DNA of 64,000 nt from Eledone cirrhosa (taxonomy: Eukaryota): NCBI GenBank assembly GCA_964016885.1, contig OZ024741.1, positions 81,468,001-81,532,000 of the forward strand, read 5' to 3'. Of the stretch, positions 1-61,302 are shown one piece after another (positions within the stretch are counted from its first letter, which is position 1; each line of letters opens with the position of its first letter). The notes under the pieces were generated by a model. It had not been told where the DNA came from. It did no database searches and was given only the letters and a program-made list of their open reading frames with translations. Position numbers and translations under genes: made by a program.

Positions 1-37
1 AAAAAGTCGTTGGGACACGTAAATAAAGAGAACGTTC

Positions 38-240
38 GGAGTATCGTTAATAGCTTTCTCCGTTTATGTATATATATATATATATATATACATAAACGGA
101 GAAAGCTATTAACGATACTCTGACCAATGTCCAACTCACTCAACAAGCATTAAGAAAATCCGGAGTATATTCCCAATTAAACGTTTGGGGTGCTAACTAT
201 ATAGTGTTGTGTGGATAATCGGCTGTATTATTTTATGTGA
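38..240. mobile_element. TA-associated non-coding repeat family C fragment with a palindrome centred on (TA)n
   Basis: gagtatcgttaatagctttctccgtttatg-(TA)n-cataaacggagaaagctattaacgatactc is an inverted repeat. 90-240 is the reverse complement of about 1410-1570 and matches 48055-48210. Confidence 0.75.
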
Positions 241-327: not shown

Positions 328-476
328 AGTGGATTAGCAGTATCGGTAGAGGGTCGGACGCTATGCTTTCCAGCATAGTTACGTCCCTTTACGATCTGAG
401 TTCAAATCCCGCCGAGGTTGACTTTGCCTTTCATCCTTACGGGGTCGATAAAATAAAGTAGCAGTAATGCACTGGG
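328..476 (+). mobile_element. tRNA-headed SINE, main family (3' truncated copy)
   Basis: A-box-like tagcagtatcgg, B-box gttcaaatcc and central gcctttcatccttacggggtcgataaaataaagta motif. More than 20 related copies occur in the window. Confidence 0.85.
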
Positions 477-494
477 TAATATATATATATATAT

Positions 495-1012
495 ATAAAT
501 GGAAAAAATGAAACGAAATTTCATTTTCCACTCTTAGTACGGCTGTTACTTAAATATAAGTATGTATACGTACATACATATATGTATACAGACGTACAGT
601 AGTATGTATACATACATGCACACATACATATATGTACGTATGGATTTACCGAACATTTATTATAATGCTCGGTTTGTTTGAAAACAAACATTCCGGATTA
701 AGCCGTACAGTGTTTAACAACCATCGTTGCCTTTTTGTTCAACACTGACAAAGGAACGATGTACTAGTTTCAAGCTAATTTGTTATCGTCAGCACCGTAT
801 ACCTTCCGGCCTGTTGATTGAACGTCTGAAAGTATATACTTTCCTTAAGCATATTAACGGCTGATCAGCCTAATTTGCATATCGAGTGAGTTAATCGGCC
901 GGGCGCACCGAAAACGATAAATGAAAAAAATGAAACGAAATTTCATTTCTCACTCTTAGTACGGCTGTTACTTAAATATAAGTATGTATACGTACATACA
1001 TATATGTATACA
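495..1012 (-). mobile_element. Family A non-autonomous hammerhead-bearing element, 422-bp unit plus ~95-bp terminal repeat
   Basis: 495-590 repeats at 917-1012. Left flank is (TA)n. Homologous to 60735-61270. Confidence 0.75.
757..797 (-). ncRNA. Minimal type I hammerhead ribozyme, family A (stem II decayed)
   Basis: Reverse complement reads CGGUG-CUGACGA-uaacaaauuagcuu-GAAA-CUAG-UA-CAUCG. Stem I is CGGUG/CAUCG, stem III is the palindrome ACUAGU, cleavage triplet GUA. Confidence 0.7.
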
Positions 1013-1026
1013 TATATGCAAATTAG

Positions 1027-3039: not shown

Positions 3040-3500
3040 ATAATAATTGTTTCTACTTTAGGCACAAGGCCAGCAGTTTGAAGGGGTGGGGGAAAGTTGA
3101 TTAAATCGACCTCAGTGCGTTACTGGTACTTTATTTTATCGACCCCGTAAGGATAAAAGACAAAGAAAACTCAGCGGGATTTGAATTCAGAAGATAAAGG
3201 GCCATAACTCTATGTCACTAAACATGTTGTCCAACGCTCTACCGATTCTTCCAATAAACCGCAATCAATAACAATAATAATAATTGTTTCTACTTTAGGC
3301 GCAAGGCCAGCAATTTGAAGGGGAAGGGAAAGTCAATTAAATCGATCCAGTGCATTACTGGTACTTTATTTTATCGACCCCGTAAGGATGAAAGGCAAAG
3401 TTAACCTCGGCGGGATTTGAACTCAGAATGACAAGGGCCGTAACTCTATGCGTCAAAGCATGGCGTCCGACCCTCTACCGATACTGCCAATCCACCGCCT
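3040..3500 (-). mobile_element. Two tandem main-family SINEs
   Basis: Two consecutive copies of aattgtttctactttaggcacaaggcc...gggatttgaactcag, each preceded by (AAT)n. Confidence 0.85.
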
Positions 3501-4674: not shown

Positions 4675-4813
4675 ATTAGAAAGTGAGGTGTTTTTTACAA
4701 AATGAAAAGTAACCGAGGTGTCCTACACGAGTGAAAGTATAAAGAAAAAAAGATGAAATCGAAAATGCAACTGGAGTCTTATTTTTAAAAATATATATAT
4801 ATTTATTTGGTTC

Positions 4814-4849
4814 CTTTACCAGTTTCGCAGTTCTTCTGATTTTCAAAAG
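4814..4849 (-). ncRNA. Minimal hammerhead, family B (U3-A8 core variant)
   Basis: Reverse complement reads CUU-UUGAAAA-ucag-aagaa-cugc-GAAA-CUGG-UA-AAG. Confidence 0.55.
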
Positions 4850-4930
4850 TAGAGTTGAGATGGAGAGTCTGTGGTTTTGCTCACAGATGTGAGATGTGAG
4901 AAAAACCACAGACTCTCCACCTCAACTCTA

Positions 4931-4966
4931 CTTTTGAAAAGCAGAAGAACTGCGAAACCGGCAAAG
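4931..4966 (+). ncRNA. Minimal hammerhead, family B (U3-A8 core variant, U16.1 mutated in this arm)
   Basis: CUU-UUGAAAA-gcag-aagaa-cugc-GAAA-CCGG-CA-AAG. Stem II gcag/cugc is perfect. The two-arm consensus gives palindromic ACCGGU and a GUA site. Confidence 0.55.
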
Positions 4967-5034
4967 GAACCAAATAAATATATATATATTTTTAAAAATA
5001 AGACTCCAGTTGCATTTTCGATTTCATCTTTTTT

Positions 5035-5100
<66 letters not shown>

Positions 5101-26821: not shown

Positions 26822-27171
26822 TGTGAGATACTGTTAACTGCTGAAAAGCTTTAAGAGGAAATCTTTGCGATTTCACGCTATAAGCGAAAACATTGATTAA
26901 TGTAATCCAATGAAATCGTCATGACAGTATGTACGGAATCATCTTATCTGCTCATATCTATCTATCTATCTATCTATCTCGTATAGTATAGACGCGTATA
27001 ACATCGGCTCCTGCCTTTTTGAATTTTTACCCATTGACAGTAAGTGTTTGTCTCTTTATTATGTTGTCTTCGTGCCTTTTAACCACCCGACTAGGTCTGT
27101 AGACGGGTAGTCATCGTATTTTTACCCCTTTTGGGGGTAAAAACTACTCCAAAAAATTTTTGCTGACTCAC

Positions 27172-28983
27172 ATGGTAAAAATTGACGCCATGTCTGTAGC
27201 ACGTGTGGACGATAACGCCACGCTCACTAAGGAAGAAGAGAGAAAGAAGCAAGCGGTACAAAGCGTTTTGCTTTCTCACGTCAATGTTTTAAAAGACTTT
27301 GTAAAAGGCGATATGCCGGACAAACAATTAAATACGGGTGCAAACCCAATTAATTACAACAAAAACACTAACAATGACAAAACCAACACACCAAATGAGA
27401 AAGACAACAACAACAAAAATGAAAATAACACAAACTACGAGAAACAGAACAACTCAAACACCAACAACGAAAACAAAATATCTTTTGCACAGACTGCTAA
27501 AATATCAGTCACCTATGTGCTTGAAGATATAACAAATGCAAAAGAAATGCTTGAAAAAGCAAAAAAATATGTATCGTTTGGCGAAAATGGATCTTTTTCC
27601 ATCAATTCGCCCCTAGAACTAAAAAAACAGACGGAATTACGAACTGTTGTATTCCGTACAATTGCAAACAAAACAAAAAAACCAGCACAACCATCTCAAG
27701 TTGAAATTCAGTTGGTCCTGAAAGAGGCTATGAAAGACATAATTTTCATACAAAAGGATAAACTCTATGGGAGTTTATCCATATTGATGAAAGACGAATT
27801 GGCGGCGAAAAAATACTCTGTGTCGCCAATTCGTTCCACACATTACACCTTTTCCCCCACCTACATGGGTAAAAAAACCCAAAGAATTTGGATAACCACC
27901 ATCACCCCAAACATAAACTACTGGTGGTTACTAACCGGTTTCCTCAACTTAGACGAGGACAACCTTATATCAATAGGGAAGGCATCCGGCGACGCGTTCA
28001 GTGGAACGAGCATTGAAGTTCTGACCCAAATAAGGCCAGAACGTATCGCCCAAATCCCTGAGCGCGTCATGCTGGATGACCGTACCCACCTCAACATTAT
28101 TGTGGAGGGTAGGCGCCCCTCCTGTTACCTCTGTGGCAATAGAAGTCACCTGACGGCTGCCTGTCCCCAGCTCACACCGAAAAAACCATTGCTACCAACA
28201 CCCCAACAACCAACACCACCACCACCCCAACAACAACAACAAAAACAACCACAACAACAACAACAACAAAAATCAACAACACCACCACCACAACAACAAC
28301 AACAAACACGTGAAAAAAACAACACAGAACACTGTCCCACCCAACCCCTCCCCACCCAAAACAAATACAAAAACACACACACCGCAAACACTACCAGAAA
28401 ATATACCCCTCCCACCCAACAAGGAAGACGAACCCCTTTCGTCGCAAGACGAAAAAGATCCCTTCCAAATAGTAAAAAGAAAGAAGAGGAGGCGCACTAC
28501 AGACACACTTATTAACATTAACCCTCCCCAAGAGAAAACAAACTATATACAAACCACCCCTCCCCGTCACACAACACTAACTGCTACGCAAAAAAGACTT
28601 TACAATATACATACATGAACACAGACAACAAAGAACTAATGAACACAATTTCGTCAAACCCTTCGGTCCAAACTGAAGGGCCTAACTTTCTAACTGCTGT
28701 GGGACTACCTCATTTACAAATGGTTAAAGTCCCAATGAACTTATACAAAACGTTGAAAATAAATTTCACGGAGGACGTGGGCCCCCCCTGCTTCAAGCCA
28801 ATCAACCGCGTCCTCCTAAAAAATTTCCCCACCCCCTACCCAGACACCCACTCAACCACAAACACCCCAACCCCACAACACACTGATGCCCCTACACTTC
28901 CACAAACCACCACCCCACCCCAAAACCCATCCCCAACCCTCATGGAAATTGAGCGGCCCGCTCCCCGAGACGCAGAGAGGTAA
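27172..28983 (+). pseudogene. Tx1-like ORF1 (nucleic-acid-binding protein), frameshifted or stop-interrupted in the C-terminal part
   Basis: ORF 27160-28515 contains VEGRRPSCYLCGNRSHLTAAC (CX2CX4HX4C knuckle) and a P/Q-rich tail. It continues in 28310-28618 and 28615-28983. Confidence 0.85.
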
Positions 28984-29007
28984 GTGCCCTTTCTCCTTAC
29001 CACCAAC

Positions 29008-32000
29008 ATGGCTGTGCTGAGAGTAGGGTGTCTAAATGCGCGTGGCCTGGGCTCATCTTGGAAGCAAGCAATGCTTCTAAATGACCTCAGGGCACGATAT
29101 ATAAATGTGATGGTTATTTGCGAACCCGGATCAGCAGCATGCGACAGCTAGCCCCCACCTTTGATGACTTTGAGATGCACGCATCTCTCTGTCAACCCGG
29201 AGGTGGGGGTGGGGTTGTCGTTCTGCTGCAAAAACAACTGGTTCTCGCCACACAGATAGTTCACTTGGACCCGGGGGGTCAACTGGTGGTGCTGGACCTT
29301 GACAGTGGTGAAGGTGGAGCCTTTAGGCTGGTAGCCGCATATGCCCCTTTTGGGACAGAGCGGCCCGACTTTTTCCAGCGTCTGGAGTCTTTTCTAGGGA
29401 CGTCCCGTTCCCTGCTTTTAGTGGGGGACTGGAATGGTATCCTGGATGCACGTTGGGACTATGCAGGGGCATGTCCTGATAGAGAGGGGTGCAACAGCCT
29501 CAAGGGGTTACTCGGCCGATTTGACCTGGCCGATAGATTTCGACTAGATTTTCCGACGGTGCCAACCTGGTCTTGGTCAAATCGTAGCGGTCAATCTAGA
29601 TCGTACCTAGATAGGTTCTTAGTTAGAAATAAGGACAGGGACTTTTTAAGTTGTCCAAAAATGCTCATGGTTGGCTATTCACACCACAAGTTAGTGACCT
29701 CCATGGTCAACCTTGATAGAACGCATAGACAGGGACCCGGTTACTGGAAGCTCAACTTGTCCTTACCGGCAAGTAAAGCTTACAGGAACCGGATTAGTAC
29801 ATTAGTTAAGGAGCGGTTGACGGGCGCCATCGTCAACAGCAGGTGGTGGCGCTCTCTCAAAAGAGAGATTAGAGTAGCTTCAATAGGAGTTAGTAAGGAG
29901 TTAGCCTCAGATAGAAATAGGAAGGAAAGGGAGTTGGTAGATAGTGTAGAAGAGGCAATTAGAAGCGGTGACGTAGCCAGTTCTTCGACGCGAAACACGA
30001 AGACTGCGTTGTCCGAAGCAAAATACCTGTTCTGTGAAACGAGGGGACCAAAGCTGTTAGCTGGGCCCGCGTTACAGAAGCCAAAAGTGACAAAAGTGAG
30101 ACTAGATCCACTATCCGGTCTTTGCGAGACCAGGATGGACGGGTGATCCTTGAACCTAAGCAGATGTGCGAGGCCTTTCAAAGGCACTTTGCCTGATTGT
30201 TCGGAAGGGACGATGGGCCGGATGGGGATGTGGACCTCGGTCCATACCTCGACGGCCTGCCGCGTCTTTCGGACGAGAAGGCGAAGTCCTGCGAGAGGCC
30301 GATCTCAGCGAGAGGCCCATCTCATGCGATACATCATAGAGAGGGTTTGGAACGAACCCGGCTTTGGTGGGGCCCTGATCAACTTGGATCAATCTAAGGC
30401 GTTCGATAGGGTCGACCATCGTTACCTGGATGCGGTGCTAGTGACGGCAGGTTTCGGACCCATTTTCAGGGGCTGGAAAACTGCCATGCACAGCAGCCGT
30501 ATCTGCTCTAGGGTCAAGGGGAACGGCTATCTCTCGGAGCCGTTCGAAATCACGCGGTCCATCCGACAAGGATGCCCCTCTCCTCCCTTCTGTATGTATT
30601 GGCCTTAGAGCCACTGCTGTGGAAGTTAGAGTTGTTACAGGGCATCCCTTTGGAACCGGGATTGCGGAAAGCGGTGTCGGCCTAGCCGATGACGTGACGG
30701 TAATGGTGTTAACCGCCTCGGAAATCGGAGTGATCGGCACCTTACTGGAGAAATACGAAACGTTTACAGGGGCTAAGCTGAACCGGGACAAGTCAGTCGG
30801 TTTGCAACTCGGCGAGTGGAGGCGCAAACCGATGGCCTCTAACGGCGTCGTCGGACGTCGGATGGAGGGCCCGGTGAAGTTGCTCGGGGTCTGGTTCGGG
30901 CCAGACCTCCAGGTGGAGAAGAACTGGGGTGAGGTATCGAACAGGGTGTTTGCGCTGACGCGGAAGTGGGCTGAGTGCAAACTATCCCTGAAAGGTCGGG
31001 CGGAGGTGGCGAACGCTTATATAGCGTCCGTCATCTATTACCGCCTGACCGTCGTGCCTTGCCCAAGGGAAACGCTCACCAAAATGGAGCGCGCACTCTT
31101 CCAATTCCTTTGCAAGAAGCGGGCTCCTTTGGTGAGGAGATCCATCTGCTGTCAACACCCTTCGAAAGGAGGGCTGGGGATGCCGTGGCTGCTGATGCGT
31201 AAACAGGCATTAAGGCTACGGCACCTCCAGGTATTCCTCACCGGTCAACCGGTGTGGGCCTCGTTTGTGAGGCGAGCCTTTCCGAGACTCGTCGCGCTCA
31301 CCGAGCTGCAGTCCTGAGTCAAGCAAAGACCGAGAAAACTGGGAGCCTGGCACACTGAGTGTGCCCAGGCGCTCACGGCTCTCTGGCAGGTGGACCCGGC
31401 TATCGGTGGAGACTCCACCTCTCATTCTATAGAGGGCTGGTGGTTAGTAGGTGCGACGACGCCCTCGGAAAGCCCTAGGCATGGAGGAAGACGAAATGGC
31501 CAGCCTATTCGGGAGGACATTTGGCCCGGGACCTATGAACAACTTCCAGAGGTCCCTGGCCTGGCAGTGCTACCGAGGGGCGCTGCCCGTTCGAGAAAAG
31601 CTCTACAGACATGGGCGCCCGGGTAGGGACCCCTCGAATAAATCTGTGCCAGATGCGTGTGCGACGAAGAAACCGTTGCGCACGCATTGGTACACTGCTC
31701 GGGTGTTGCCGATCTGTGGGGCTATGTCGAACGACTGCTGTCACGGGTGGGACCAATCCGGTTGACCACTGACTCCATTGTAACGATCAAACCGCCTCCC
31801 CCCTTCAAAAATGAAGGAGAGGCGGTCTTCCTTGGTGAAAGAGGTGGTATGGTGGACACGTTTGAAAGGGTCGGACACCTTTCTCTCTGGCCAACAACTG
31901 GTCCTTTCTTTAAATACCATTTTAAGAGAAGGATCAGAATGGAGAGAGAGGTGCTCTACGCCAGCAAGTTTTATGAAAGGTGGGTGAAAGTAGCGAGAAT

Positions 32001-36179: not shown

Positions 36180-36242
<63 letters not shown>

Positions 36243-36291
36243 AAGTAATTAAGTCAAATATTTAAGATTTGGCTTCGTTTATTAAAGATGT

Positions 36292-36346
36292 ACTGCTATA
36301 TATATTTCGGTGACAGCCATCATTGGCTGTGACCTATTCAGGCAGT
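36292..36346 (-). ncRNA. pLTR hammerhead-like fold (inverted copy)
   Basis: Exact reverse complement of 37102-37156. Confidence 0.6.
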
Positions 36347-37101
36347 TCGAATTGGTGTGGTAGAGACAGGTACACATGTTGTTAAAGTGTTTTACCCCGT
36401 CAATACTCCGATATGTCCAGCTCCTGGTTGGGTTGTTATTTCTCTGAGGAACTGGAATCATATGAATTCGAACAAACGAATTTCGGCATCATCGGACACT
36501 CTCTCCTCCCATTGGTCAGTTGTGAGAACATTCCTCAGTCAAAAGTCTATAGAAATGTTTTTTTGAGGCAAGACAATCTGTTGTGGTTGTTTTTGTTAAG
36601 TACAGCTGACCTCCTCCCTTGTGTTTATTGGTGTTAGGGAGTCAGCTGGCAGGTCAGCCTTAGTTCTACTGCTGCTGTCTTTAGAAGAATGGGTGTGTGT
36701 GGGTTGGCATCAATCCTACCACCCTTTCACGTGGTGGAGGGTGCAAAACAGATAATGCAATCAGATAAAGTAAAATGAAGAAATAAAATATAAAAAAATA
36801 AGATAAAATAAATGAATAAAATAGAATAAAATGCGTGTTTGTTATAGCCAATATCAAATATCAAAGAAGAATAAAGTGAGTGTGTGTTATAGCCAATATT
36901 AAAGTTTGAAAGATTTGGAAAATATTGACTGAAGTATAAAGGCTATGTGTCAGAATCGGGAAATGCAAAAGATTACTATCTTTACACTATCATGGGGTGG
37001 TGCGTTTTAAGAGCAAATGAGGCAAGAGTGGAGTGTAAAACACCATAACCTGAGTGTCAAAATCCGGAACATGTGTGTTTGTCTCTACCACACCAATTCG
37101 A

Positions 37102-37156
37102 ACTGCCTGAATAGGTCACAGCCAATGATGGCTGTCACCGAAATATATATAGCAGT
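37102..37156 (+). ncRNA. pLTR hammerhead-like fold, core CUGAAUA (G8 replaced by U)
   Basis: ACUGC-CUGAAUA-ggucacagcca-auga-uggcugucacc-GAAA-UAUAUA-UA-GCAGU. Stem I is 5 bp, stem II is long, stem III is the palindrome AUAUAUAU. Confidence 0.6.
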
Positions 37157-37363
37157 ACATCTTTAATAAACGAAGCCAAATCTTAAATATTTGACTTAAT
37201 TATTTTATTTTACATTACTCCAGAGTAACCAAACCAACCTGCGTACTTCGTCGAGTGCTCCAATCTGCATACTGAGGTGTCGGTAAACAACCAACATATA
37301 CTCAAAATTTATCTAGCCCCACCACGTGTTGAGCGCTTCAAACAGTAGCGGACTTAAGTCACT

Positions 37364-39992
37364 ATGGAAAAACTGGCAACCTTGGCGTCACTGAAGGATA
37401 TCTTCCTACCTGGCAAACGAGAATACACCAGTGAGCTCATCAGAAGTACGGACTCCCTTGTCCGTAGGATGACATGGAGGGCGTTCCACTTTGAAAGAGA
37501 AACGCATAAAATTACCAACACCCAAAACATGGAGTACCTTTTTAGATAAAGGAGGAACCCTCCCAACAACAGCCTAATGGAGGAGTTCGAAAACAAGATG
37601 ATCAACATTATCTCCAACCTCAAATTCTCCGGAAACCCACCCAGAAGTCAGGAGTACCTCAGACACCTGGGAAACGGGATTACAAAACTTAAAGAGACAA
37701 CTGGAATACTTGTCCATACCGATAAAACCAACAACCTCTACAACATGGACATTGAACTGTATGATAAGCTAATTCTCATGGAACTGAGGAAATGCTACAA
37801 AAAACACCCGGAGTTACCCTGGATGAGATCAACGTCACAGCTTACAGGATTATATCCGGACTCTGCATAGAGGATAGGACGGCCCCATACCAATCAAGGG
37901 AGCCGCGGATTACCCTTAAGGACTACAAGCCAAACTTTGAGTCTGACCTCCCGGTTAGATTAATAGTCCCCTCCAGATCAAACCTAGGGATCGTCAGTAA
38001 AAACATACTGGATAAGATTTTGCTCAAGCTTCGGAAAAAAACTAGATTACAATGGTCATGTAGGGGAGAGGTAATAGAATGGTTTAAGATACTACCTGAG
38101 AAAAGTAGGACCAGCTTTATCCAACTGGATATTGCAGGCTACTACTCCTCAATCTTGCCCATAGTACTCAATAAGGCCCTTATTTTAGCGATGTCCAATA
38201 CGGACCTAACACGCGAGGAGGTGAGCATCATCCACGCCGCCCGAAAGACCCTGATCAGTTTCGGTGGAGACCTTTGGACCAGAAGTGATTGGCCAAATAA
38301 CTTTGACATCACGATGGGCTCCAGCGACTCCGCACAGGTAACGGACCTGGTCGGGCTATTCCTGCTGAAGCAGATAAAAGATGAAATCCCCTGCCCGGGC
38401 TGCGGATTGTATCGTGACGATGCACTCTTCACAGTCTATGGTGGAGAGAATGAAGAGGCGTATTCGGCATTTCTTTAAGAACCATGGGCTCAATATCGAA
38501 CTAGACCCAAATAGAAAGGTAGTTAACTTCCTAGACACCACCCTAAACCTGAACACCCAGCAATACTACCTATATCACAAGCCCAACAAGAAACTGGTAT
38601 ATGTTAACGCCAAGTCAAACTACCCTAGATCCATAATTAAGGCCGTAGTGAAGAGTGTCTCGGACAGGTTCTCCAGCCTGTCCGCAAATAAGGAGATCTT
38701 CGATAGCAACGCAGAATATTACAACGCAGCTCTAAATAAGGCGGCGCATGGCCAAAATATATCATATAATCCGAGGCGCCATGACTGGGATAGCCCAACG
38801 GATACCCCGACCCACGGGATCTGGGAGGGGGGAACCCTAACAACACAAGCAGAGTAAAAACAACTAAACATCATGAACCCGACACTACCTCGCGAGGGGC
38901 ACGCGTACATGGGAGGAAACCCGGTACGAGTAGCAGTCTCAGGGGTGATATCAACCACCCCGTGCCCGACGCCCCCAACCGCAAGACACGAAGCGGGACC
39001 GATGGAAGACCATCCCACCGTAGAACTCCCAGCGTGGGTAACAACCATCCCAGAGATACGGGCCGGGAAGTTAGCAGAACACATAGCGACCAAAGGGGAA
39101 GCAGCAATGCGGGAACCACTAGCAACCCAACAACTCCCTAACAACCTACGACACGCTCAACCCACCCACATAGGAGTAGACACAGAAAAATCACGTGGTA
39201 CAACCCACCATTCTCAGCGGCCCTAAAGAACAGCATGGCCCGCTCATTCTTTAGAGCACTAGATAAATGCTTACCGAAGGACCATAGATACCGCAAGATC
39301 TTCAACAGACACACTGTAAAACTCTCATATTCTACCACGCGAAATGTGGCCCAGCACATAGCTAGCATTAATAGGGGTAGACTTAAAAACCACACACAAC
39401 CGGAAGCTGGCAATATAGGCACCCGGCAGAACCATGTGGAGGGAAAGAAGGGTGGACCCAGTAACCCAAACAGACCCAGGGACCCCCCACCGGGCCCGGG
39501 GGAGGACCACCATATAATACGCAACGGGAACCCCATATTAGGCACGCGGAGGTCGACCACCTCCTGCAACTGCAGAAACCCAGCATTATGCCCCCTTAGT
39601 AATGAATGCCTAAGGAAGAACTTAATATACGGATGTAGAGTAAAAACGCCCCAACTCTGTACACCTTTACATAGGAGCCACATCAACGAGCTTTAAGGAC
39701 TGATGGTATAACCATCACCATTCCTTTAACAGGGAGGACAAAAGAAAAAGTACGGCTCTTTCCGAACTGATCTGGAAGCTCAAGCTGGACAGGACCCCGT
39801 ACTCTCTGGCCTGGTCCAAAAATCAGGAAAGTACCACCTGATAAAGAGGGATCTGGCATCTGCAAACTATGTCTGAGCGAGACCCTCGAAATACTCAGCG
39901 GTGGAAGCAACCTGATAAACCTCAGGACTGACTTCTTCGGGACATGTAGACACCTCAGGGCCGGGACCTTCCTCAAGCTATATGGACAATAA
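37364..39992 (+). pseudogene. Penelope-like RT plus GIY-YIG endonuclease ORF, multiple frameshifts and stops
   Basis: TDKTNNLY, ITLKDYKPNF, QLDIAGYYSSI, MGSSDSAQVTDLVG, GLYRDD, NFLDTTL, WYNPPFS, KIFNRHTVKLSYS, CNCRNPALCPLSNEC, YIGAT, WYNHHHSF, CKLCLSE and CRH. Confidence 0.9.
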
Positions 39993-40129
39993 CAACACAT
40001 TGGGAGGGGAACTTCCCTCAAGCTATAGGAACTTCTCCGGGACATGTAGACACCCCAGGCCTGGACCTTCCTCAAGTTATATGAACAATAACAACACTTT
40101 GGGATGGGAACTTCCCTCAAGCTATAGGG
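39930..40129 (+). repeat. ~99-bp tandem duplication spanning the end of the Penelope-like ORF
   Basis: acttct.cgggacatgtagacacc...aacttccctcaagctatagg occurs twice. Confidence 0.85.
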
Positions 40130-40861
40130 ACAGTAGCCCCGCCACACCGAGCCCACGGTAAATCACCCCCTACACTTTCACCACCCCTACCCCTGCCTCG
40201 ATCGACTCCTATGGCAGCACAGGCTTATGCATATGTCCATACATAGACCCTGTTATTTAAGATTGTACAGGCACTGTTACTTACATATGTGTGTGTGTGT
40301 GTGCGTGTGTGTGCGAGTATATATATACATATATATATATGGGTGTGTGTGTGTTTGTATAATCTGTGTGTGTGTGGGTGTGTGTGAATATGGGATGCTC
40401 CTGGGCCCGTGTTGGTGCGTGTGGGCTTGCAACGATGTGGGTTGACATACACGCATATGTACTATATGCCGAATTAAAAACTGTAGTCCTCTGCATTTCC
40501 GGATTTTGACACTCAGGTTATGGTGTTTTACACTCCACTCTTGCCTCATTTGCTCATAAAACGTACCACTCCATGATAGTGTAAAGTTCGTAATCCTTTG
40601 CATTTCCCGATTCTGACACATAGCCTTTATACTTCAGTCAATATTTTCCAAATCTTTCAAACTTTAATATTGGCTATTAACACACACGCACTTTATTCTT
40701 CTTTGATATTTGATATTGGCTATAACAAACACGCATTTTATTCTATTTTATTCATTTATTTATTTATTTTTTTACTTCTTCATTTTATTGTATCGTATCT
40801 TATTATTTTATTATTTATTTTATCTTATTTTTTTATATTTTATTTCTTCATTATCTGATTC

Positions 40862-41045
40862 CTTGGCAGTATCGGTTGAGGGTCGGACGCTATGCTTTGA
40901 CGCATATAGTTACGGTCCTTGCCATTCTGAGTTCAAATCCCGCCGAGGTTTACTTTGCCTTTCATCCTTACCGGGTCGATAAAATAAAGTAGCAGTAATG
41001 CACTGTGTATTTGCTGGCCTTGTGCCAAAAGTAGAAACAATTATC
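40862..41045 (+). mobile_element. Main-family SINE inserted in the Penelope-like 3' region
   Basis: Present here but absent from the inverted copy at about 36750-36770. Confidence 0.85.
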
Positions 41046-41449
41046 TGTTTGGCATCCCCCACCACGTGAAAGGGTGGTAGGATTGATGCCAACCCACACA
41101 CACTCATTCTTCTAAAGACAGCAGCAGTAGAACTAAGGCTGACCTGCCAGCTGACCCCCTAACACCAATAAACACAAGGGAGGAGGTCAGCTGTACTTAA
41201 CAAAAACAACCACAACAGATTGTCTTGCCTCAGAAAAAAATGTCTATAGACTTTTGACTGAGGAATGTTCTCACAACTGACCAATGGGAGGAGAGAGTGT
41301 CCTATGATGCCGAAATTCGTTTGTTCGAATTCATATGATTCCAGTTCCTCAGAGAAATAACAACCCAACCAGGAGCTGGACATATCGGAGTATTGACGGA
41401 GTAAAATACTTTAACAACATGTGTACCTGTCTCTACCACACCAATTCGA

Positions 41450-41504
41450 ACTGCCTGAATAGGTCACAGCCAATGATGGCTGTCACCGAAATATATATAG
41501 CAGT
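41450..41504 (+). ncRNA. pLTR hammerhead-like fold (3' copy)
   Basis: Identical to 37102-37156. Confidence 0.6.
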
Positions 41505-41930
41505 ACTTCTATAATAAACGAAGCCAAATCTTAAATATTTGACTTAATTACTTTATTTTACATTACTCCGGAGTAACCAAACCAACCTGCGTACTTCGTC
41601 GAGTGCTCCAATCTGCATACTGAGGTGTCGGTAAACAACCAACATATACTCAATATATATATATATATAATATGCATTCTATGACTGAACTTTCACCACA
41701 ATACAAGATTTTTTATCAATAGGCTCGTCTTTTTCCCTCAATTTCCAAATGAATCTCGATAAGATGGTGGAAATGTTTTTCACAATTGCTCCGATGAAGT
41801 GAGCGCGGGAAATTCAAGATGTACTCATTCTGATTCAGATTGATATGATTACAATTAGGAGTGGTATTTTAATAGTTTCTACAAAGATGTTTTTGGGAAT
41901 ACTTGAAAAATCTCACACAAACACACACAC

Positions 41931-51735: not shown

Positions 51736-54700
51736 TATCAAGACAGAATTGCCTGCATCCCTATCTCTTTTGTGAATCAGGTATTTCGTGCTAATCTCCT
51801 GTTCTTGGATTGCAAAAGCGTATCCTTCAAAGTGGGAGCCAATATAGCGGTTGTTGGTCCAAGATAGACTACTTTCCTTATCTATATTATTCTCACTTTG
51901 GAGCTTCCTGGCAACATATCCATGCATGATTTTTTGCTGACAGGCATGCAGTTTTCATCCATGGATTCACTGTGATACTGCTGAGCGACATCCCTGGGTG
52001 TGAGTTTTTGATTATCAGACAGGGAATATCTCTCAAGGAGTTCCTTCCCAACTCTCATGATCTTATCTGTTTCATGCAGATAGACTTGCTCGAGAAGCGG
52101 GCTCCTACGCTTCGAGGTTCGTAGATGTTGTCGGAGAGATATGATGAGACATTCAAATGTTGTCTGGACTGATGTTAGGCCTCTACCTCCCTGCTTACGT
52201 TTCAAGTAAAGGCGGTCTATGTCACTGTTGATGTGGAAGTTTCCGGTGTTGTTCAGTATTTTTCGAGTTCCAACATGAACTGCTCGGATTTCATCTATCG
52301 TCCAATGGAGTATTCCAAACGTTGGTGTTAGGACAGGCACAGCAAACACATTGTGAGCCACTGTTTTGTTTTGCGCAGAGAGTTACGATGACCAGATCTT
52401 TCTTAATCGGGTGTAGTATTCCCTGGTTACGCGTTCTTTATTACAGATACCATTATAGGATATGTTCTCATCTATCCCCAGGTATCTGTAGCAGTCCTCA
52501 TCAGATATCGGTGAAACAGTTAGACCATTGATGCCAATGTTGCTAGATTGGGTTGTTGTTTTTCCCCGCTTTACAGTCATGTATCAGCATTTATCCTGGC
52601 CAAACTCCATTCCTATATCCTTTGAAAACGTTGTAACCAGGTCAAGATTTTTCTTCATCCCATCCATGTTCTTGGCATAGAGTTTCAGATCGTCCACAAA
52701 GAAGTTATGGGTTAGGTTCGTATTTCTGTCCTCCTGTGAGCCAATGATGTATCCCTCACATTTCTTGAGCAGAAAGGACAAGGGGTTTAATGACAAGATG
52801 TACAATATCACAGAGAGACTGTCCCCCTGAAATATACCCCTGCAATATTTTATTTTATCAGTGAAAATAGAGTCCTCCCTCTCTGTCTTTAACCTTAGGA
52901 TAGTAGCCCAAGAAGAAGACAGCCTCTCTATGGCTCTGACAATAATGTCTGGGACTTTAGCAAGTTGGAGGGCCTCTATCATCCAAGACTGGGGAACAGA
53001 ATCGAAAGCTTTCTTGTAGTCCAGCCAGACTGTAGTCATATTCCTCCTAAGTTGTCGCACCTCCGACATCGCTGTTTTGTTGATTAGGAGTTGTTCAGCA
53101 CATCCCCAAACCCTTTTCTTTCCAGCTGCTTTTTCATCTGTGATGATGTTATTATTTTCACAGTGATCTTGGAGGAATAGGTTCAGGCAGGCAGGCTGTA
53201 TACATCTTATACATCAGGTTCTGGCATGCAATGGGTCGGTAGTTTTTTGCCAAGTGGGTGTCTTTGTTCTTGGGGACCAGTAACGTTTGTGCTAATATCA
53301 ACCATTCTGGTATAAGTGTATCTCCCTTAAGAACTTGTTGGTAGAGGTCAGTAAGATACCTCCGATAGAATATCAGTTTTTTGTACCAGTAGCCGACAAT
53401 CATGTCTCTTCCTGGTGTTTTCTTATCTTGGAGTTTTCCTATCACAGTCTCAAGGGTACCCTCACTTATTTCATGTTTTTGTTGTAGTGTAGGAGCAATA
53501 GTTCTTTCGGATTTCTCTTAGCCACACTGCATCTTGGTTGAAATTCTTCTTTTCACCCCATATTTTTCTCCAAAAGGAATCTATGTCTTTCTGGGATGGG
53601 GCTTCAGTGACACTTATTATTTTGCCCTTCATATCTCTATAGATTGATGTTTGGTTTCGTCTGAATCTTTTATTAAGCATTTTTCTCTCATCTACCTTCT
53701 TCAGGTATCGGCGTTTTTCGCTAACAACTCTCAATTCTTGTTTGAGGGTGATCAGCTTATATCGGAGAGTTCTGGTTCTACTGTTACCAAACATCGTCTC
53801 TATTTTATTTTTCACTCTTTGTTGGTGAGGAGTGAGGTTTTTTTGTGTTTGTTTGCATATAAGGAGCATTATCACATGTCCTATGTTTTTTCGTAGGTCA
53901 GCACTCTCTTTTTCTATTTTAGTTATATATGATGGTATTTTTGGTGGTGTTTTGTTCTTGTTAATATCTCTGCTATCACCAAGATAATGCTTCACTGTCA
54001 TTGCTAAGGCATATAAACAGGCGTTGATTTGCCAAAATGTTGGGGTTTTTATCCGTTGTAAATATTCATCCGCTATTTCGTTAATAACACGTAGTATTTC
54101 ATTATTTGGCTTTTTATTCACCATTGTCATTTTAACACGTTCAGCCAGAGAGATATTTATACATGAGTTAATTTCTCTCTGGAAGATTTCGTTGAGGGAA
54201 ATTTTCAATTGTTTATACTTTTGATTATCATTATCGATAGTATTTTCCACAACAGTCGAGGTAGACTCGGATGGTATACGTGGTGTCACATTTATTCGAT
54301 TATTATTATTATTTCCTCAAGGGCGGTGGATTGGCAGTATTGGTAGAGGGTCGGACGCCATGCTTTCCAGCATAGTTACGTCCCTTTACGATCTGAGTTC
54401 AAATCCCGCCGAGGTTGACTTTGCCTTTCATCCTTACGGGGTCGATAAAATAAAGTACCAGTAATGCACTGGCCTTGTGCCTAAAGTAGAAACAATTATT
54501 ATTATTTCCTCGATTATTATTATTATCGATAGTGTTTTCCCCAGCATTCGAGGTAGACTTAGATGGTACACGTGGTGTCAAATTTCTTAGTTGTTTCAAG
54601 GCGCTGTTCGACCTGGCTGCTAGGAAGTCTAGTAGCATGGCGATCTGTAGCACGTGTTGTTGATTCCATGTTTGTTGTGGGGGACTTACAATTAATAATA

Positions 54701-55200
54701 TTTATCTTATTTTTACGTTCAACAAACGCCGCTTGTTGGCGTAATTGTTTCGCTGTGAAATAATTTAGCTCTGGGAGCATTTCGTCCCAGTGTAGCTTCA
54801 TTCTATTCATATAGCCAATGGAGGGATTGTTTTTTGCCATTTTATAACAATTAAATAAATCATTATTAAGTTCGCAACTCCAAGAGAAATGCGATTTATA
54901 ATTTCGGTTTCTTCTGTAGCTACAACTGAATAAAGTTTGATTACCTTCTTTGTTATTTGTCTTCGATACTTCCTTAATTTTCTTGTTGATGTTGTGTTCA
55001 GCCATGCTGTTTGTAGCAAATCCTTGTAAAATGAATTATGTATTTAGTCGGATATCTCTACAAATTCGAATAAAAGGTGTCTCCAGAAGGGATAGTTAGA
55101 AGAATAACCAGTTATTCAACCTGGCCGTAGATAGTATTCATCTTAAATTTAATAAATAGTCTCCCACGCCAAAATATGCGACTGATCGCGTTGACTGACT
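51735..55200 (-). pseudogene. R4/Dong-type LINE ORF (RT), frameshifted, truncated before the RLE domain
   Basis: GYMNRMKLHW, KTPGRD, NYRPIAC, WLDYKKAFDSVP, GIFQGDSLS, FFVDDLKLY, YRYLG, RLYLKRKQGGRGL and AIQEQEISTK. The 5' end abuts (TATG)n. Confidence 0.88.
54320..54510 (+). mobile_element. Main-family SINE inserted in the R4 ORF
   Basis: Full head and 3' end. attattattatttcctc is duplicated on both sides (TSD). Confidence 0.88.
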
Positions 55201-55369: not shown

Positions 55370-55966
55370 ATATATCCAAACACACATATGTAGCTATCAT
55401 ATATACATATATAACCATAATCCCATCTAACAGATTAATTCTATTTAATCAAATACGGCGTAAGCACATATTACAACCTAATTTTCAAATTCGCTAGCCG
55501 TTTGTAAGCAACACCTGCTTTGTGTCTCCCTATTTATATACATACATATATAAAGCTGTTATGGTTATATAGCTTCTAATTGAATGAAAGGAGGCATGGG
55601 TGGCGTGTTTGTGTAATAGTAGTACATTGGTCCGGCAAACTAAAGATGTGGGTTCGTGTCCCATGTACGTCAATACTCATCGTTTTTTCCATTCAGAAGG
55701 TTTTTTAAAATCCCAACTAACAGAGTAATTCTATTTAGTCAAATACGGCGTAAGCACATATTCCTACCTTATTTTCAAATCATCTCGCCTGCTTTGTGTC
55801 TCAATATTCATATACTTATAAATATATGCATATGTTTGAGCGTGTGGGCAGTAGTAGTTCTCTAGATTTGAGTTTCAGTTTATAGGAGTATATTTATTGT
55901 TAAATATCAGTTTCGGAATGTTTGTGTGTATATGCGTATATATGCATGTATGTATGTAAGTATATC

Positions 55967-60487: not shown

Positions 60488-60848
60488 ACTCACATCTAAA
60501 AATATATATATAATATATACATATATTATATATATAAATGAAGTATTTCCGTAGGAAAGGTAAAGGAAAAGAGAGTGTTCTATGTAGGTTACAGAGCTAT
60601 TTATATATATATATATAAAATATAATCAATTTTTTTAAAAACTTTTGTTTAACAACCTATTAACCTTATAGGGGCAGCTTATACCCTTATATGGACTACA
60701 TACATACATGCACACACATATATATATATGTACCTATGGGTTTACCGAACATTTATTATAATGTTCTGTTTGTTTGTAAACAGCCCGAGTTAAGCCGTAC
60801 AGTGTTCGGCAACCATCGTTGACTTTTTGTTCAACACTGACAAAGGAA

Positions 60849-60888
60849 CGATGAACTAGTTTCTAGCTCATTAGCTGTCATCAGCACC
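60849..60888 (-). ncRNA. Minimal type I hammerhead, family A
   Basis: Reverse complement reads GGUG-CUGAUGA-c-agcu-aaug-agcu-a-GAAA-CUAG-UU-CAUCG. Confidence 0.78.
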
Positions 60889-61026
60889 TGTCATTTTTTC
60901 CATTTATGGTTTTCAGTACGCCCGGCCGACTAACTCACTCGATATGCAAATTAGGCTGCTCAGCCGTTAATATGCATAAAGAAAGTATATACTTTCAAAC
61001 GTTCAATCGATTGACAGGAAAGTATA

Positions 61027-61067
61027 CGGTGCTGATGACAGCTAATAAACTAGAAACTAGTTCATCG
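61027..61067 (+). ncRNA. Minimal type I hammerhead, family A
   Basis: CGGUG-CUGAUGA-c-agcu-aaua-aacu-a-GAAA-CUAG-UU-CAUCG. Confidence 0.72.
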
Positions 61068-61302
61068 TTCCTTTGTCAGTGTTGAACAAAAACGCAACGA
61101 TGGTTGCCGAACACTGTATGGCTTAACTCGGGCTGTTTGTTTACAAACAAACCGAACATTATAATAAATGTTCGGTAAACCCATGCGTACTTATATATAT
61201 GTGTGCATGTATGTATGTATATACATACTACTGTACGTCTGTATACATATATGTATGTACGTATGCATACTTATATATATATATGTATATATATATATAT
61301 AC

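What the first reader, a model, noticed from the sequence alone, without database searches (positions are those of the whole stretch)
495..1012. Family A: one 422-bp unit plus terminal repeat containing one hammerhead (retrozyme-like)
Seen: 495-590 recurs at 917-1012 with no coding capacity between and a hammerhead on the minus strand. Inference: this monomer-plus-overhang form is what reverse transcription of a circular or concatemeric, ribozyme-processed RNA would leave.
Basis: partly seen in the sequence, partly recalled or inferred. Interest (0 to 1): 0.75.

Follow-up and report, generated by a model that had tools for sequence, protein, structure and literature searches.

The report
Decayed Penelope-inserted hammerhead retrozyme copy
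This is one worn-down copy of a 428-base non-coding repeat, present thousands of times in this animal genome, that carries a predicted self-cutting RNA fold and was likely pasted in by the enzymes of Penelope-type jumping genes; it is a known kind of element, and its ends do not show whether the copied RNA was a circle.

Summary
In detail: 495-590 recurs at 917-1012 (93 of 96 identical) and a type I hammerhead lies on the minus strand (cut site 762/761). The locus is a 1.2-unit, 5'-truncated copy of a dispersed family (2,011 exact ribozyme-core matches; three subfamilies; a 466-bp sister family with compensatory helix changes). Ends are not circularly permuted: in 105 loci the RNA-3' end sits at unit position 1 or 57 (159 of 197 arms), mostly in (TA)n; 5' ends are scattered and do not pile up at the cut site; 39 of 41 head-to-head pairs have one end of each kind. 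That is the published Penelope 'tail' signature of internal reverse-transcription starts. The template ran through the cut site, so it was a circle or an uncleaved multimer; DNA cannot tell which. This copy's helix II is broken by private changes. A U6-like upstream 12-mer suggests an internal promoter (untested). No autonomous partner was found and no RNA could be tested. Verdict: new member of a known kind (metazoan non-LTR retrozyme). The scan reported the same pattern for other families of this genome.

The parts
479..494 (.). (TA)n target into which the RNA-3' end is inserted
   Evidence: sequence; 127 of 159 fixed ends in the family have (TA)3 within 14 nt against 379 of 3495 background positions
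495..916 (-). One full unit (422 nt; subfamily S, consensus 428 nt), RNA sense on the minus strand
   Evidence: 95% to the S consensus; 16 substitutions
495..550 (-). 56-nt 'tail' between the two fixed ends (unit positions 1 and 57); holds an 8-bp hairpin and a U6 run (508-503); inferred to lie between two reverse-transcription start sites
   Evidence: 77 arms end at position 1, 82 at position 57, of 197; tail defined as the stretch between two RT starts in PMC11167929
551..645 (-). AU-rich self-complementary segment predicted to form a long hairpin
   Evidence: circular fold of the monomer
756..798 (-). Type I hammerhead: helix I 798-793 with 761-756, CUGACGA 792-786, helix II region 785-772 (broken in this copy), GAAA 771-768, two-pair helix III on a self-complementary ACUAGU, predicted cut after GUA between 762 and 761
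   Evidence: 6 of 12 pairs change on both sides across 10 copies of family and sister family, 97.5% of cells paired
832..838 (-). TATA-like box, 42 nt after the U6-like element (46-48 nt in U6 genes)
   Evidence: function inferred
870..881 (-). 12-nt element TATGCAAATTAG, the same as or one letter from the element at -76 to -78 of three U6 loci of this genome; candidate internal promoter
   Evidence: absent upstream of 4 U2 loci examined; kept in the 466-bp sister family
917..1012 (-). Second, 5'-truncated lap (unit positions 1-96): the 'terminal repeat' or pseudo-LTR
   Evidence: 99% to the S consensus; truncation points vary across the family
1014..1026 (+). 13-nt inverted piece of the element at the 5' junction, then TA and (TG)n; likely a template-switch scrap or remnant of a second arm
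   Evidence: sequence; similar short inverted pieces at the 5' junction of L028, L079, L114
60697..61279 (.). Second locus of the family (subfamily T), two arms joined head to head: 60889-61279 (RNA on +, ends at position 57 in TA) and 60700-60888 (RNA on -); hammerhead cores at 61032 (+) and 60884 (-)

Best explanation
The locus is a decayed, 5'-truncated 1.2-unit copy of a dispersed ~428-bp non-coding repeat family with a predicted type I hammerhead, likely inserted into a (TA)n run by the reverse transcriptase and endonuclease of a Penelope-like element working in trans. Steps: (1) inferred: a unit or array is transcribed, perhaps from the U6-like element in each unit; (2) predicted: the hammerhead, with a two-pair palindromic helix III, cuts mainly as a dimer in tandem transcripts and may give monomers that a host ligase closes to circles; (3) inferred from the ends: the Penelope enzyme nicks (TA)n on both strands and starts copying inside the RNA at two sites 56 nt apart, one per strand, which yields two head-to-head arms, one with and one without the tail; (4) shown: copying runs through the cut site and the unit junction and stops at scattered points, so the template was a circle or an uncleaved multimer; (5) shown: this copy has one arm that starts at the outer site and ends 96 nt into its second lap, and has since gathered about 4-5% changes, which break helix II.
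For: Family size: 2,011 exact matches to the intact 35-nt core, 0 for the reversed control; 25 of 44 cores in similarity-picked loci match that pattern, which scales to roughly 3,500. Fold: 6 of 12 pairs with compensatory change, covariation score 0.47 against 0.16 in shuffles and at most 0.14 in slid controls (10 related sequences, so few independent events). Ends: 159 of 197 RNA-3' ends at position 1 or 57; in the position-ordered set alone 114 of 148; 127 of 159 in (TA)n against 11% background. Head-to-head pairs in 47 of 76 position-ordered loci; 39 of 41 pairs with both ends fixed have one of each, binomial p 8e-10. Either arm can be the longer (16 against 23), which a fold-back copy of one arm would not give. 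Both arms belong to one subfamily in 51 of 53 pairs. Template continuity: of 22 arms that reach the cut region in their second lap 4 stop there, a rate like that of neighbouring bins. One-monomer origin of some arrays: all four units of L069 share 4 private changes, and both arms of L114 share 1; rare variants are shared in 78 of 673 cases within tandem arms, 14 of 405 between opposite arms, 283 of 74,519 between loci (pairs not independent). Literature: one-sided tail and inverted 5' copy are Penelope marks (PMC8557442; PMC3846280); purified Poseidon protein cuts and extends both strands of AT-rich DNA and starts at two internal RNA sites that bound the tail (PMC11167929).
Against: No autonomous Penelope element with a homologous pseudo-LTR or tail was found: a profile of family and sister family hit only family copies in the window and in 7 loci chosen for Penelope ORFs, a very small sample of the genome. 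The 56-nt tail is longer than the 30-40 nt reported. 38 of 197 3' ends are at other positions. The base pair of helix II next to the core is U-U or C-A, not the usual G-C, so cleavage may be weak; Li et al. saw cleavage in 1 of 9 tested retrozyme dimers. No strand-biased A>G excess that would mark an edited RNA step: 66 of 9,898 A>G against 61 of 9,744 T>C. L092, L112 and L115 show period-2 or period-3 variant patterns, so arrays are also reshaped as DNA. A U6 run in the tail would stop polymerase III before the outer start site.
Confidence: 0.8

Rival explanations
1. Circle version: the ribozyme cuts multimers to ~428-nt monomers, these are ligated, and the reverse transcriptase runs round the circle.
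For: Arms of up to 6 laps; whole-array private variants in L069 and L092; the sister family has a 31-unit array whose 6 units examined differ by 0-4 of 466 nt and ends in an opposite-strand unit; predicted circles are highly paired, z -7.6 to -11.7, and keep helix I across the junction in S and L (much of the energy comes from an AU-rich hairpin); circles are shown for coral, mussel and axolotl retrozymes (PMC7229834).
Against: Ends are fixed, not permuted, and none marks the cut site; most loci hold under two units (8 of 76 have an arm of 850 nt or more); later DNA duplication also gives shared variants.
Confidence: 0.45
2. Linear version: the template is an uncleaved read-through transcript of a tandem copy; the ribozyme is not needed for insertion.
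For: For Anolis Poseidon, ribozyme mutants insert as well and unprocessed RNA is the main substrate in vitro; no reads end at the cut site (PMC11167929). No excess of ends at the cut site here. The weak helix II base and two-pair helix III fit slow cleavage.
Against: Thousands of cores are intact and helices covary between family and sister family, which points to selection on the fold at the source; arrays of near-identical laps are easier to get from a circle.
Confidence: 0.4
3. The copies are truncated 3' ends (pseudo-LTRs) of an autonomous Penelope element, not a separate non-autonomous family.
For: Same end anatomy as autonomous elements; Xenopus retrozymes match pLTRs (10.64898/2026.07.22.740005).
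Against: Arms longer than one unit continue into another unit, not into an ORF (70 of 159; hit maps); 5' flanks of 67 unpaired arms showed family pieces, microsatellites and other repeats in the part of the output seen.
Confidence: 0.1
4. A one-off local duplication or a satellite spread by DNA recombination alone.
For: Some arrays show later DNA-level reshuffling.
Against: Dispersed over many chromosomes, fixed 3' ends in (TA)n, scattered 5' ends and head-to-head arms.
Confidence: 0.02

Closest known systems
Metazoan non-LTR retrozymes (Cervera and de la Pena 2020, PMC7229834, parts 2-4 of 6 read; Li, Clavereau and Pollet 2026, 10.64898/2026.07.22.740005, parts 1-3 of 5 read)
   Same: Non-coding unit of 150-450 bp, GC under 50%, one type I hammerhead per unit, monomers to multimers, no PBS/PPT, Penelope elements in the same genome; U-U mismatch at the base of helix II as in axolotl HHR_Amex2.
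   Different: Expression and circles untested here. Mostly dispersed 1-2 unit copies. Shows fixed two-site 3' ends, head-to-head arms and (TA)n targets, which the parts of these papers that I read do not describe; they propose Penelope mobilisation from co-occurrence and pLTR similarity.
EN+ Penelope-like elements and their non-autonomous derivatives (Craig et al. 2021, PMC8557442, passages; Arkhipova et al. 2013, PMC3846280, passages; Frangieh et al. 2024, PMC11167929, parts 1-2 of 4; Cervera and de la Pena 2014, PMC4209133, parts 1-2 of 4)
   Same: 5' truncation, partial tandems forming pseudo-LTRs, inverted 5' copy, tail on one side only, (TA)n or AT-rich targets, hammerhead with a short palindromic helix III; non-autonomous head-to-tail forms are known (MRC1 of Chlamydomonas).
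   Different: No ORF; tail 56 nt against 30-40; hammerhead of canonical size (6-bp helix I, 14-nt helix II region) and not the minimal type; no autonomous partner identified.
Newt satellite 2 and schistosome hammerhead satellite (seen only as a passage in PMC2220036; the primary paper PMC308520 is not held)
   Same: Hammerhead repeat with an internal small-RNA-type promoter (snRNA type with polymerase II in newt; polymerase III in schistosome).
   Different: Here the candidate element matches this genome's U6 upstream element and not its U2 upstream region; spacing to the TATA box is 4-6 nt short; activity untested.
Plant LTR retrozymes (as described)
   Same: Non-autonomous, hammerhead-bearing, terminal direct repeat in appearance.
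   Different: Those have type III hammerheads inside two true LTRs, PBS/PPT and 4-bp target duplications; here one type I hammerhead lies outside the repeat and the repeat length varies from copy to copy.

Membership tests
Metazoan non-LTR retrozyme | Type I hammerhead in each unit | tested here: met
   Core, helices and covariation in the family; this copy's helix II is decayed
Metazoan non-LTR retrozyme | Short (150-450 bp) non-coding, low-GC unit without LTR, PBS or PPT | tested here: met
   Consensus 427-442 nt, GC 0.36-0.38; no ORF of 150 aa; repeat length variable; PBS/PPT judged by eye only
Metazoan non-LTR retrozyme | Tandem copies with at least two complete hammerheads | tested here: met
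   Family: arrays of 2-6 units (8 of 76 loci with an arm of 850 nt or more). This locus alone: not met, one hammerhead
Metazoan non-LTR retrozyme | Self-cleavage of the transcript | not testable with these tools
   Needs in vitro transcription
Metazoan non-LTR retrozyme | Accumulation as unit-length linear and circular RNA | not testable with these tools
   No RNA holder listed
Penelope-mobilised non-autonomous element | One-sided tail between two fixed 3' ends | tested here: met
   159 of 197 ends at two sites; 39 of 41 pairs mixed
Penelope-mobilised non-autonomous element | 5' truncation, partial tandems, inverted 5' copy | tested here: met
   47 of 76 loci with a head-to-head pair
Penelope-mobilised non-autonomous element | AT-rich or (TA)n target | tested here: met
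   127 of 159 against 379 of 3495
Penelope-mobilised non-autonomous element | Sequence shared with an autonomous partner's 3' end or pLTR | tested here: inconclusive
   No hit in the window's own Penelope element or in 7 Penelope loci; most Penelope families of the genome were not sampled
Autonomous Penelope-like element | ORF with RT and GIY-YIG between pLTRs | tested here: not met
   Units follow units; no ORF at this locus
Plant-type LTR retrozyme | Type III hammerhead within each of two fixed LTRs | tested here: not met
   One type I hammerhead outside the repeat; variable repeat length
U6-type (type 3 polymerase III) promoter | Upstream element and TATA box at the U6 spacing, start about 30 nt after TATA | tested here: inconclusive
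   12-mer matches, spacing 42 against 46-48; 5' ends at the predicted start 12 of 61 against 6.5 expected, scan p 0.6

The most novel reading that the evidence does not exclude
A cephalopod lineage of self-transcribing retrozymes: each unit carries a captured U6-type promoter that starts RNA at the 5' edge of its hammerhead, the RNA is cut and circularised, and a Penelope enzyme copies the circle from both sides of a (TA)n break at two internal start sites. The family's ends would then be genomic proof of the proposed Penelope-retrozyme partnership and would hand over a minimal cis signal (56-nt tail region) for Penelope-driven insertion.
Probability: 0.25. Interest if true: 0.72.

Novelty: new member of a known kind. 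Interest (0 to 1): 0.4.

Why it matters
Animal retrozymes are assumed to borrow Penelope enzymes, on grounds of co-occurrence and sequence likeness in the papers read here. The insertion ends of this family match the two-site internal start that was shown in vitro for a Penelope protein, which is more direct support, and they name the two RNA positions to test. A search for 'cephalopod' with 'hammerhead ribozyme' listed 2 papers, neither on cephalopod retrozymes by title and abstract, and five terms joining retrozyme, Penelope, tail, inverted and non-autonomous listed 3 reviews or guides (listing only); the supplements of PMC7229834 and of the 2026 preprint were not seen and may list such families. 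The locus itself is an old, probably inactive copy, and the scan has already noted the same pattern in younger families of this genome, so this finding adds one more family and little new principle.

Tried and rejected
Rfam: no hammerhead model matched; the miRNA hits at E<=10 are the TA-rich hairpin. RNA evidence: no RNA holder listed; the four runs laid on 645-970 are contigs of unrecorded kind: two runs of one sample hold thousands of contigs of the family, two other organisms hold 7 and 10 short pieces; nothing on expression, ends or circles follows. Pile-up of ends at the cut site: not found. The 23 ends at unit position 421-430 are an artefact of cutting the consensus there (positions 1-30 are empty). 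Pile-up of 5' ends at the predicted U6-type start: weak and not significant after allowing for the scan. RNA-editing scars: none in this family. Fold-back origin of the second arm: rejected, either arm can be longer. Autonomous partner: profile search in the window and 7 Penelope loci found none, nor did those elements carry the U6-like 12-mer. Low mutation rate of the core is not used as evidence, because 76 loci were picked by an intact core. One search counted helix I with a structure string shifted by one column; one search is the corrected count. Rows dropped before counts: 11 of 116 loci as overlaps or because they hold the window copy again; hits under 80% identity or confined to the simple-repeat part; arms under 60 nt (17 of 216); unit positions 57-170 and CpG sites in variant counts. 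Pfam did not recognise the window's Penelope-like frames (0 of 3); that label is by recalled motifs and tblastn to similar frames.

Full report
Observation. 495-590 recurs at 917-1012 with 3 differences in 96 nt. The minus strand holds CUGACGA (792-786), a 14-nt helix II region, GAAA (771-768), CUAGUA and a predicted cut between 762 and 761, closed by a 6-bp helix I. Rfam has no hammerhead match here. No ORF of 150 aa overlaps the locus. The hammerhead is in the middle of the unit, outside the 96-nt repeat.

Family. The window lies in a 3.0-Gb animal genome; a cephalopod is likely, by my recall of the flanking SINE and by earlier scan notes, not by a test. A DNA search gave 2,727 first-look candidates, 40 scored. 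A 35-nt pattern of the intact core matched 2,011 times, the reversed control 0 times; 25 of 44 cores in similarity-picked loci fit the pattern, which scales to about 3,500. 64 full units fall into three subfamilies of 428 (S), 427 (T) and 442 nt (L), with median divergence from consensus 2.7, 3.9 and 1.9%; the window copy, at 4.8%, ranks 90th of 107 S segments. A second locus (T) lies at 60697-61279. A 466-bp sister family, alignable over the whole unit, dominates the first 100 listed of 9,627 matches to a looser core pattern.

Ribozyme. Across 10 copies of family and sister family 97.5% of cells pair, and 6 of 12 pairs change on both sides; slid controls score at most 0.14 against 0.47. These are few independent events. 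Helix III is two pairs on a self-complementary ACUAGU, the form that works as a dimer in tandem transcripts (PMC4209133). The pair next to the core is U-U or C-A, like the weak axolotl HHR_Amex2 (PMC7229834). The window copy has lost 2 of the 4 helix II pairs and no longer folds as a hammerhead locally; its exact core variant occurs once in the genome, with 3 others at one mismatch. It is most likely inactive (inference). Six of its 16 substitutions lie within 38 nt around the ribozyme (uncorrected p 0.004), which I cannot explain.

Ends. I mapped 216 arms in 105 loci (29 picked by similarity, 76 taken in chromosome order from the core search; 11 overlapping loci dropped). Of 197 arms of 60 nt or more with a readable RNA-3' end, 77 end at unit position 1, 82 at position 57 and 38 elsewhere. 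127 of the 159 fixed ends run into (TA)n, against 11% of background positions. 5' ends are spread over the unit. 67 pairs of arms are joined head to head; of 41 with both outer ends fixed, 39 have one end of each kind (p 8e-10). Either arm may be longer (16 against 23), and both are of one subfamily in 51 of 53 pairs. This is the Penelope pattern: 5' truncation, partial tandem, inverted copy, tail on one side (PMC8557442; PMC3846280). Purified Anolis Poseidon protein cuts and extends both strands of AT-rich DNA and starts at two internal RNA sites; the tail is the stretch between them (PMC11167929). The window copy is the single-arm case: start at position 1, one lap, stop 96 nt into the next. 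The 'terminal repeat' is therefore a pseudo-LTR of chance length.

Template. A cut linear monomer, primed at position 1 or 57, would end at position 273. Only 4 5' ends and 1 3' end lie within 8 nt of that site. In the second lap, which the sampling does not bias, 22 arms reach the region and 4 stop there, a rate like that of neighbouring bins; 17 arms pass the site twice and 7 three times. The template was thus continuous across the cut site: a circle or an uncleaved multimer. Rare variants are shared more often within arrays (78 of 673) and between opposite arms (14 of 405) than between loci (283 of 74,519) (pairs not independent). L069 shares 4 private changes in all four units; L092, L112 and L115 also show period-2 or period-3 patterns that point to later DNA exchange. 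No A>G strand bias was found (66 of 9,898 against 61 of 9,744). For Poseidon, cleavage is not needed and uncut RNA is the main substrate in vitro. Circles are shown for other animal retrozymes. I put circle and linear multimer at about even odds.

Promoter lead. Family and sister family keep TATGCAAATTAG 119 and 131 nt before the cut. The same or a one-letter variant stands at -76 to -78 of three U6 loci of this genome and not upstream of 4 U2 loci. A TATA-like box follows at 42 nt (U6: 46-48). A U6-type start would fall at the 5' edge of the hammerhead. Against it: the short spacing; a U6 run in the tail of S and T that should stop polymerase III; whole units need read-through; and the excess of 5' ends at the predicted start is not significant (12 of 61 against 6.5; scan p 0.6). 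Internal small-RNA promoters are reported for newt and schistosome hammerhead satellites (passage in PMC2220036).

Partner and expression. The genome holds several kinds of Penelope-like ORFs (clade names by recalled motifs). A profile of family and sister family found no homologous pLTR in the window's Penelope element or in 7 such loci. No RNA holder was listed.

Comparison and verdict. It works like, and by all features testable here is, a metazoan non-LTR retrozyme (PMC7229834; 10.64898/2026.07.22.740005) with the insertion marks of a Penelope-mobilised non-autonomous element; cleavage and circles are untested. Earlier scan notes report the same two-armed pattern for 310-, 422-, 467- and 520-600-nt families of this genome; a sequence look-up found no note on this family. 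New member of a known kind; interest 0.4.

Noticed in passing
window 36237-41655: Near full-length Penelope-like element: broken RT and GIY-YIG-like frames at 37345-39990, direct pseudo-LTRs near 37070-37330 and 41410-41655, an inverted upstream copy, and a one-sided tail of about 94 nt; its hammerhead core is decayed (CTGAATA) and has a long helix II; intact relatives at L147 9167 and 9373.
   Followed up: partly
window 44209, 44293, 61655; L151 3507 and 7716: Hammerhead-bearing pseudo-LTR of another Penelope family, in inverted pairs; in L151 it flanks an RT and GIY-YIG frame.
   Followed up: partly
window 45997, 46300, 59758: A further small hammerhead family (core followed by a 4-bp helix II and palindromic helix III), three copies.
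   Followed up: no
window 48963 and 48970; L149 6493, 6964, 8549: Inverted pair of hammerhead-like motifs with a longer helix III; another dispersed family.
   Followed up: no
L126-L146 (G000:C1:5738326-5752444); L090 4731-5772; L013 2784-3345; L037 1870-2426: 466-bp sister family, homologous to this one over the whole unit, with a 31-unit array that ends in an opposite-strand unit; its tail is about 70 nt but its two ends fall at positions homologous to 1 and 57, so the starts seem set by sequence or fold, not by distance.
   Followed up: partly
window 335-478: SINE-like repeat (93% to 3347-3445) stops at the (TA)n next to the insertion; its usual last ~40 nt, seen at 41009-41045, are not found on the other side, so no target duplication is visible.
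   Followed up: no
window 37-120 and 1459-1588: Fold-back repeat with a (TA)n centre; 85% inverted match between the two places.
   Followed up: no
window 4738-5042: 148-nt arms, 95% complementary, 9 nt apart.
   Followed up: no
window 27103-31317 (+) and 51882-55035 (-): Two broken non-LTR retrotransposons: an endonuclease domain at 29085-30143 and an RT domain at 52587-53213.
   Followed up: no
L154-L161 and L162-L165: U6 genes of this genome have a TATGC(A/T)AAT(T/G)AG element at -76 to -78 and a TATA box; U2 genes have a different element near -60 and also a TATA-like box near -34.
   Followed up: partly
window 55602-55672 (+): tRNA-like match (38 bits), perhaps the head of a SINE.
   Followed up: no
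L111 2996-3270 (G000:C2:81464996-81465270): Another copy of the family (subfamily L) 3.2 kb upstream of the finding, outside the window.
   Followed up: no
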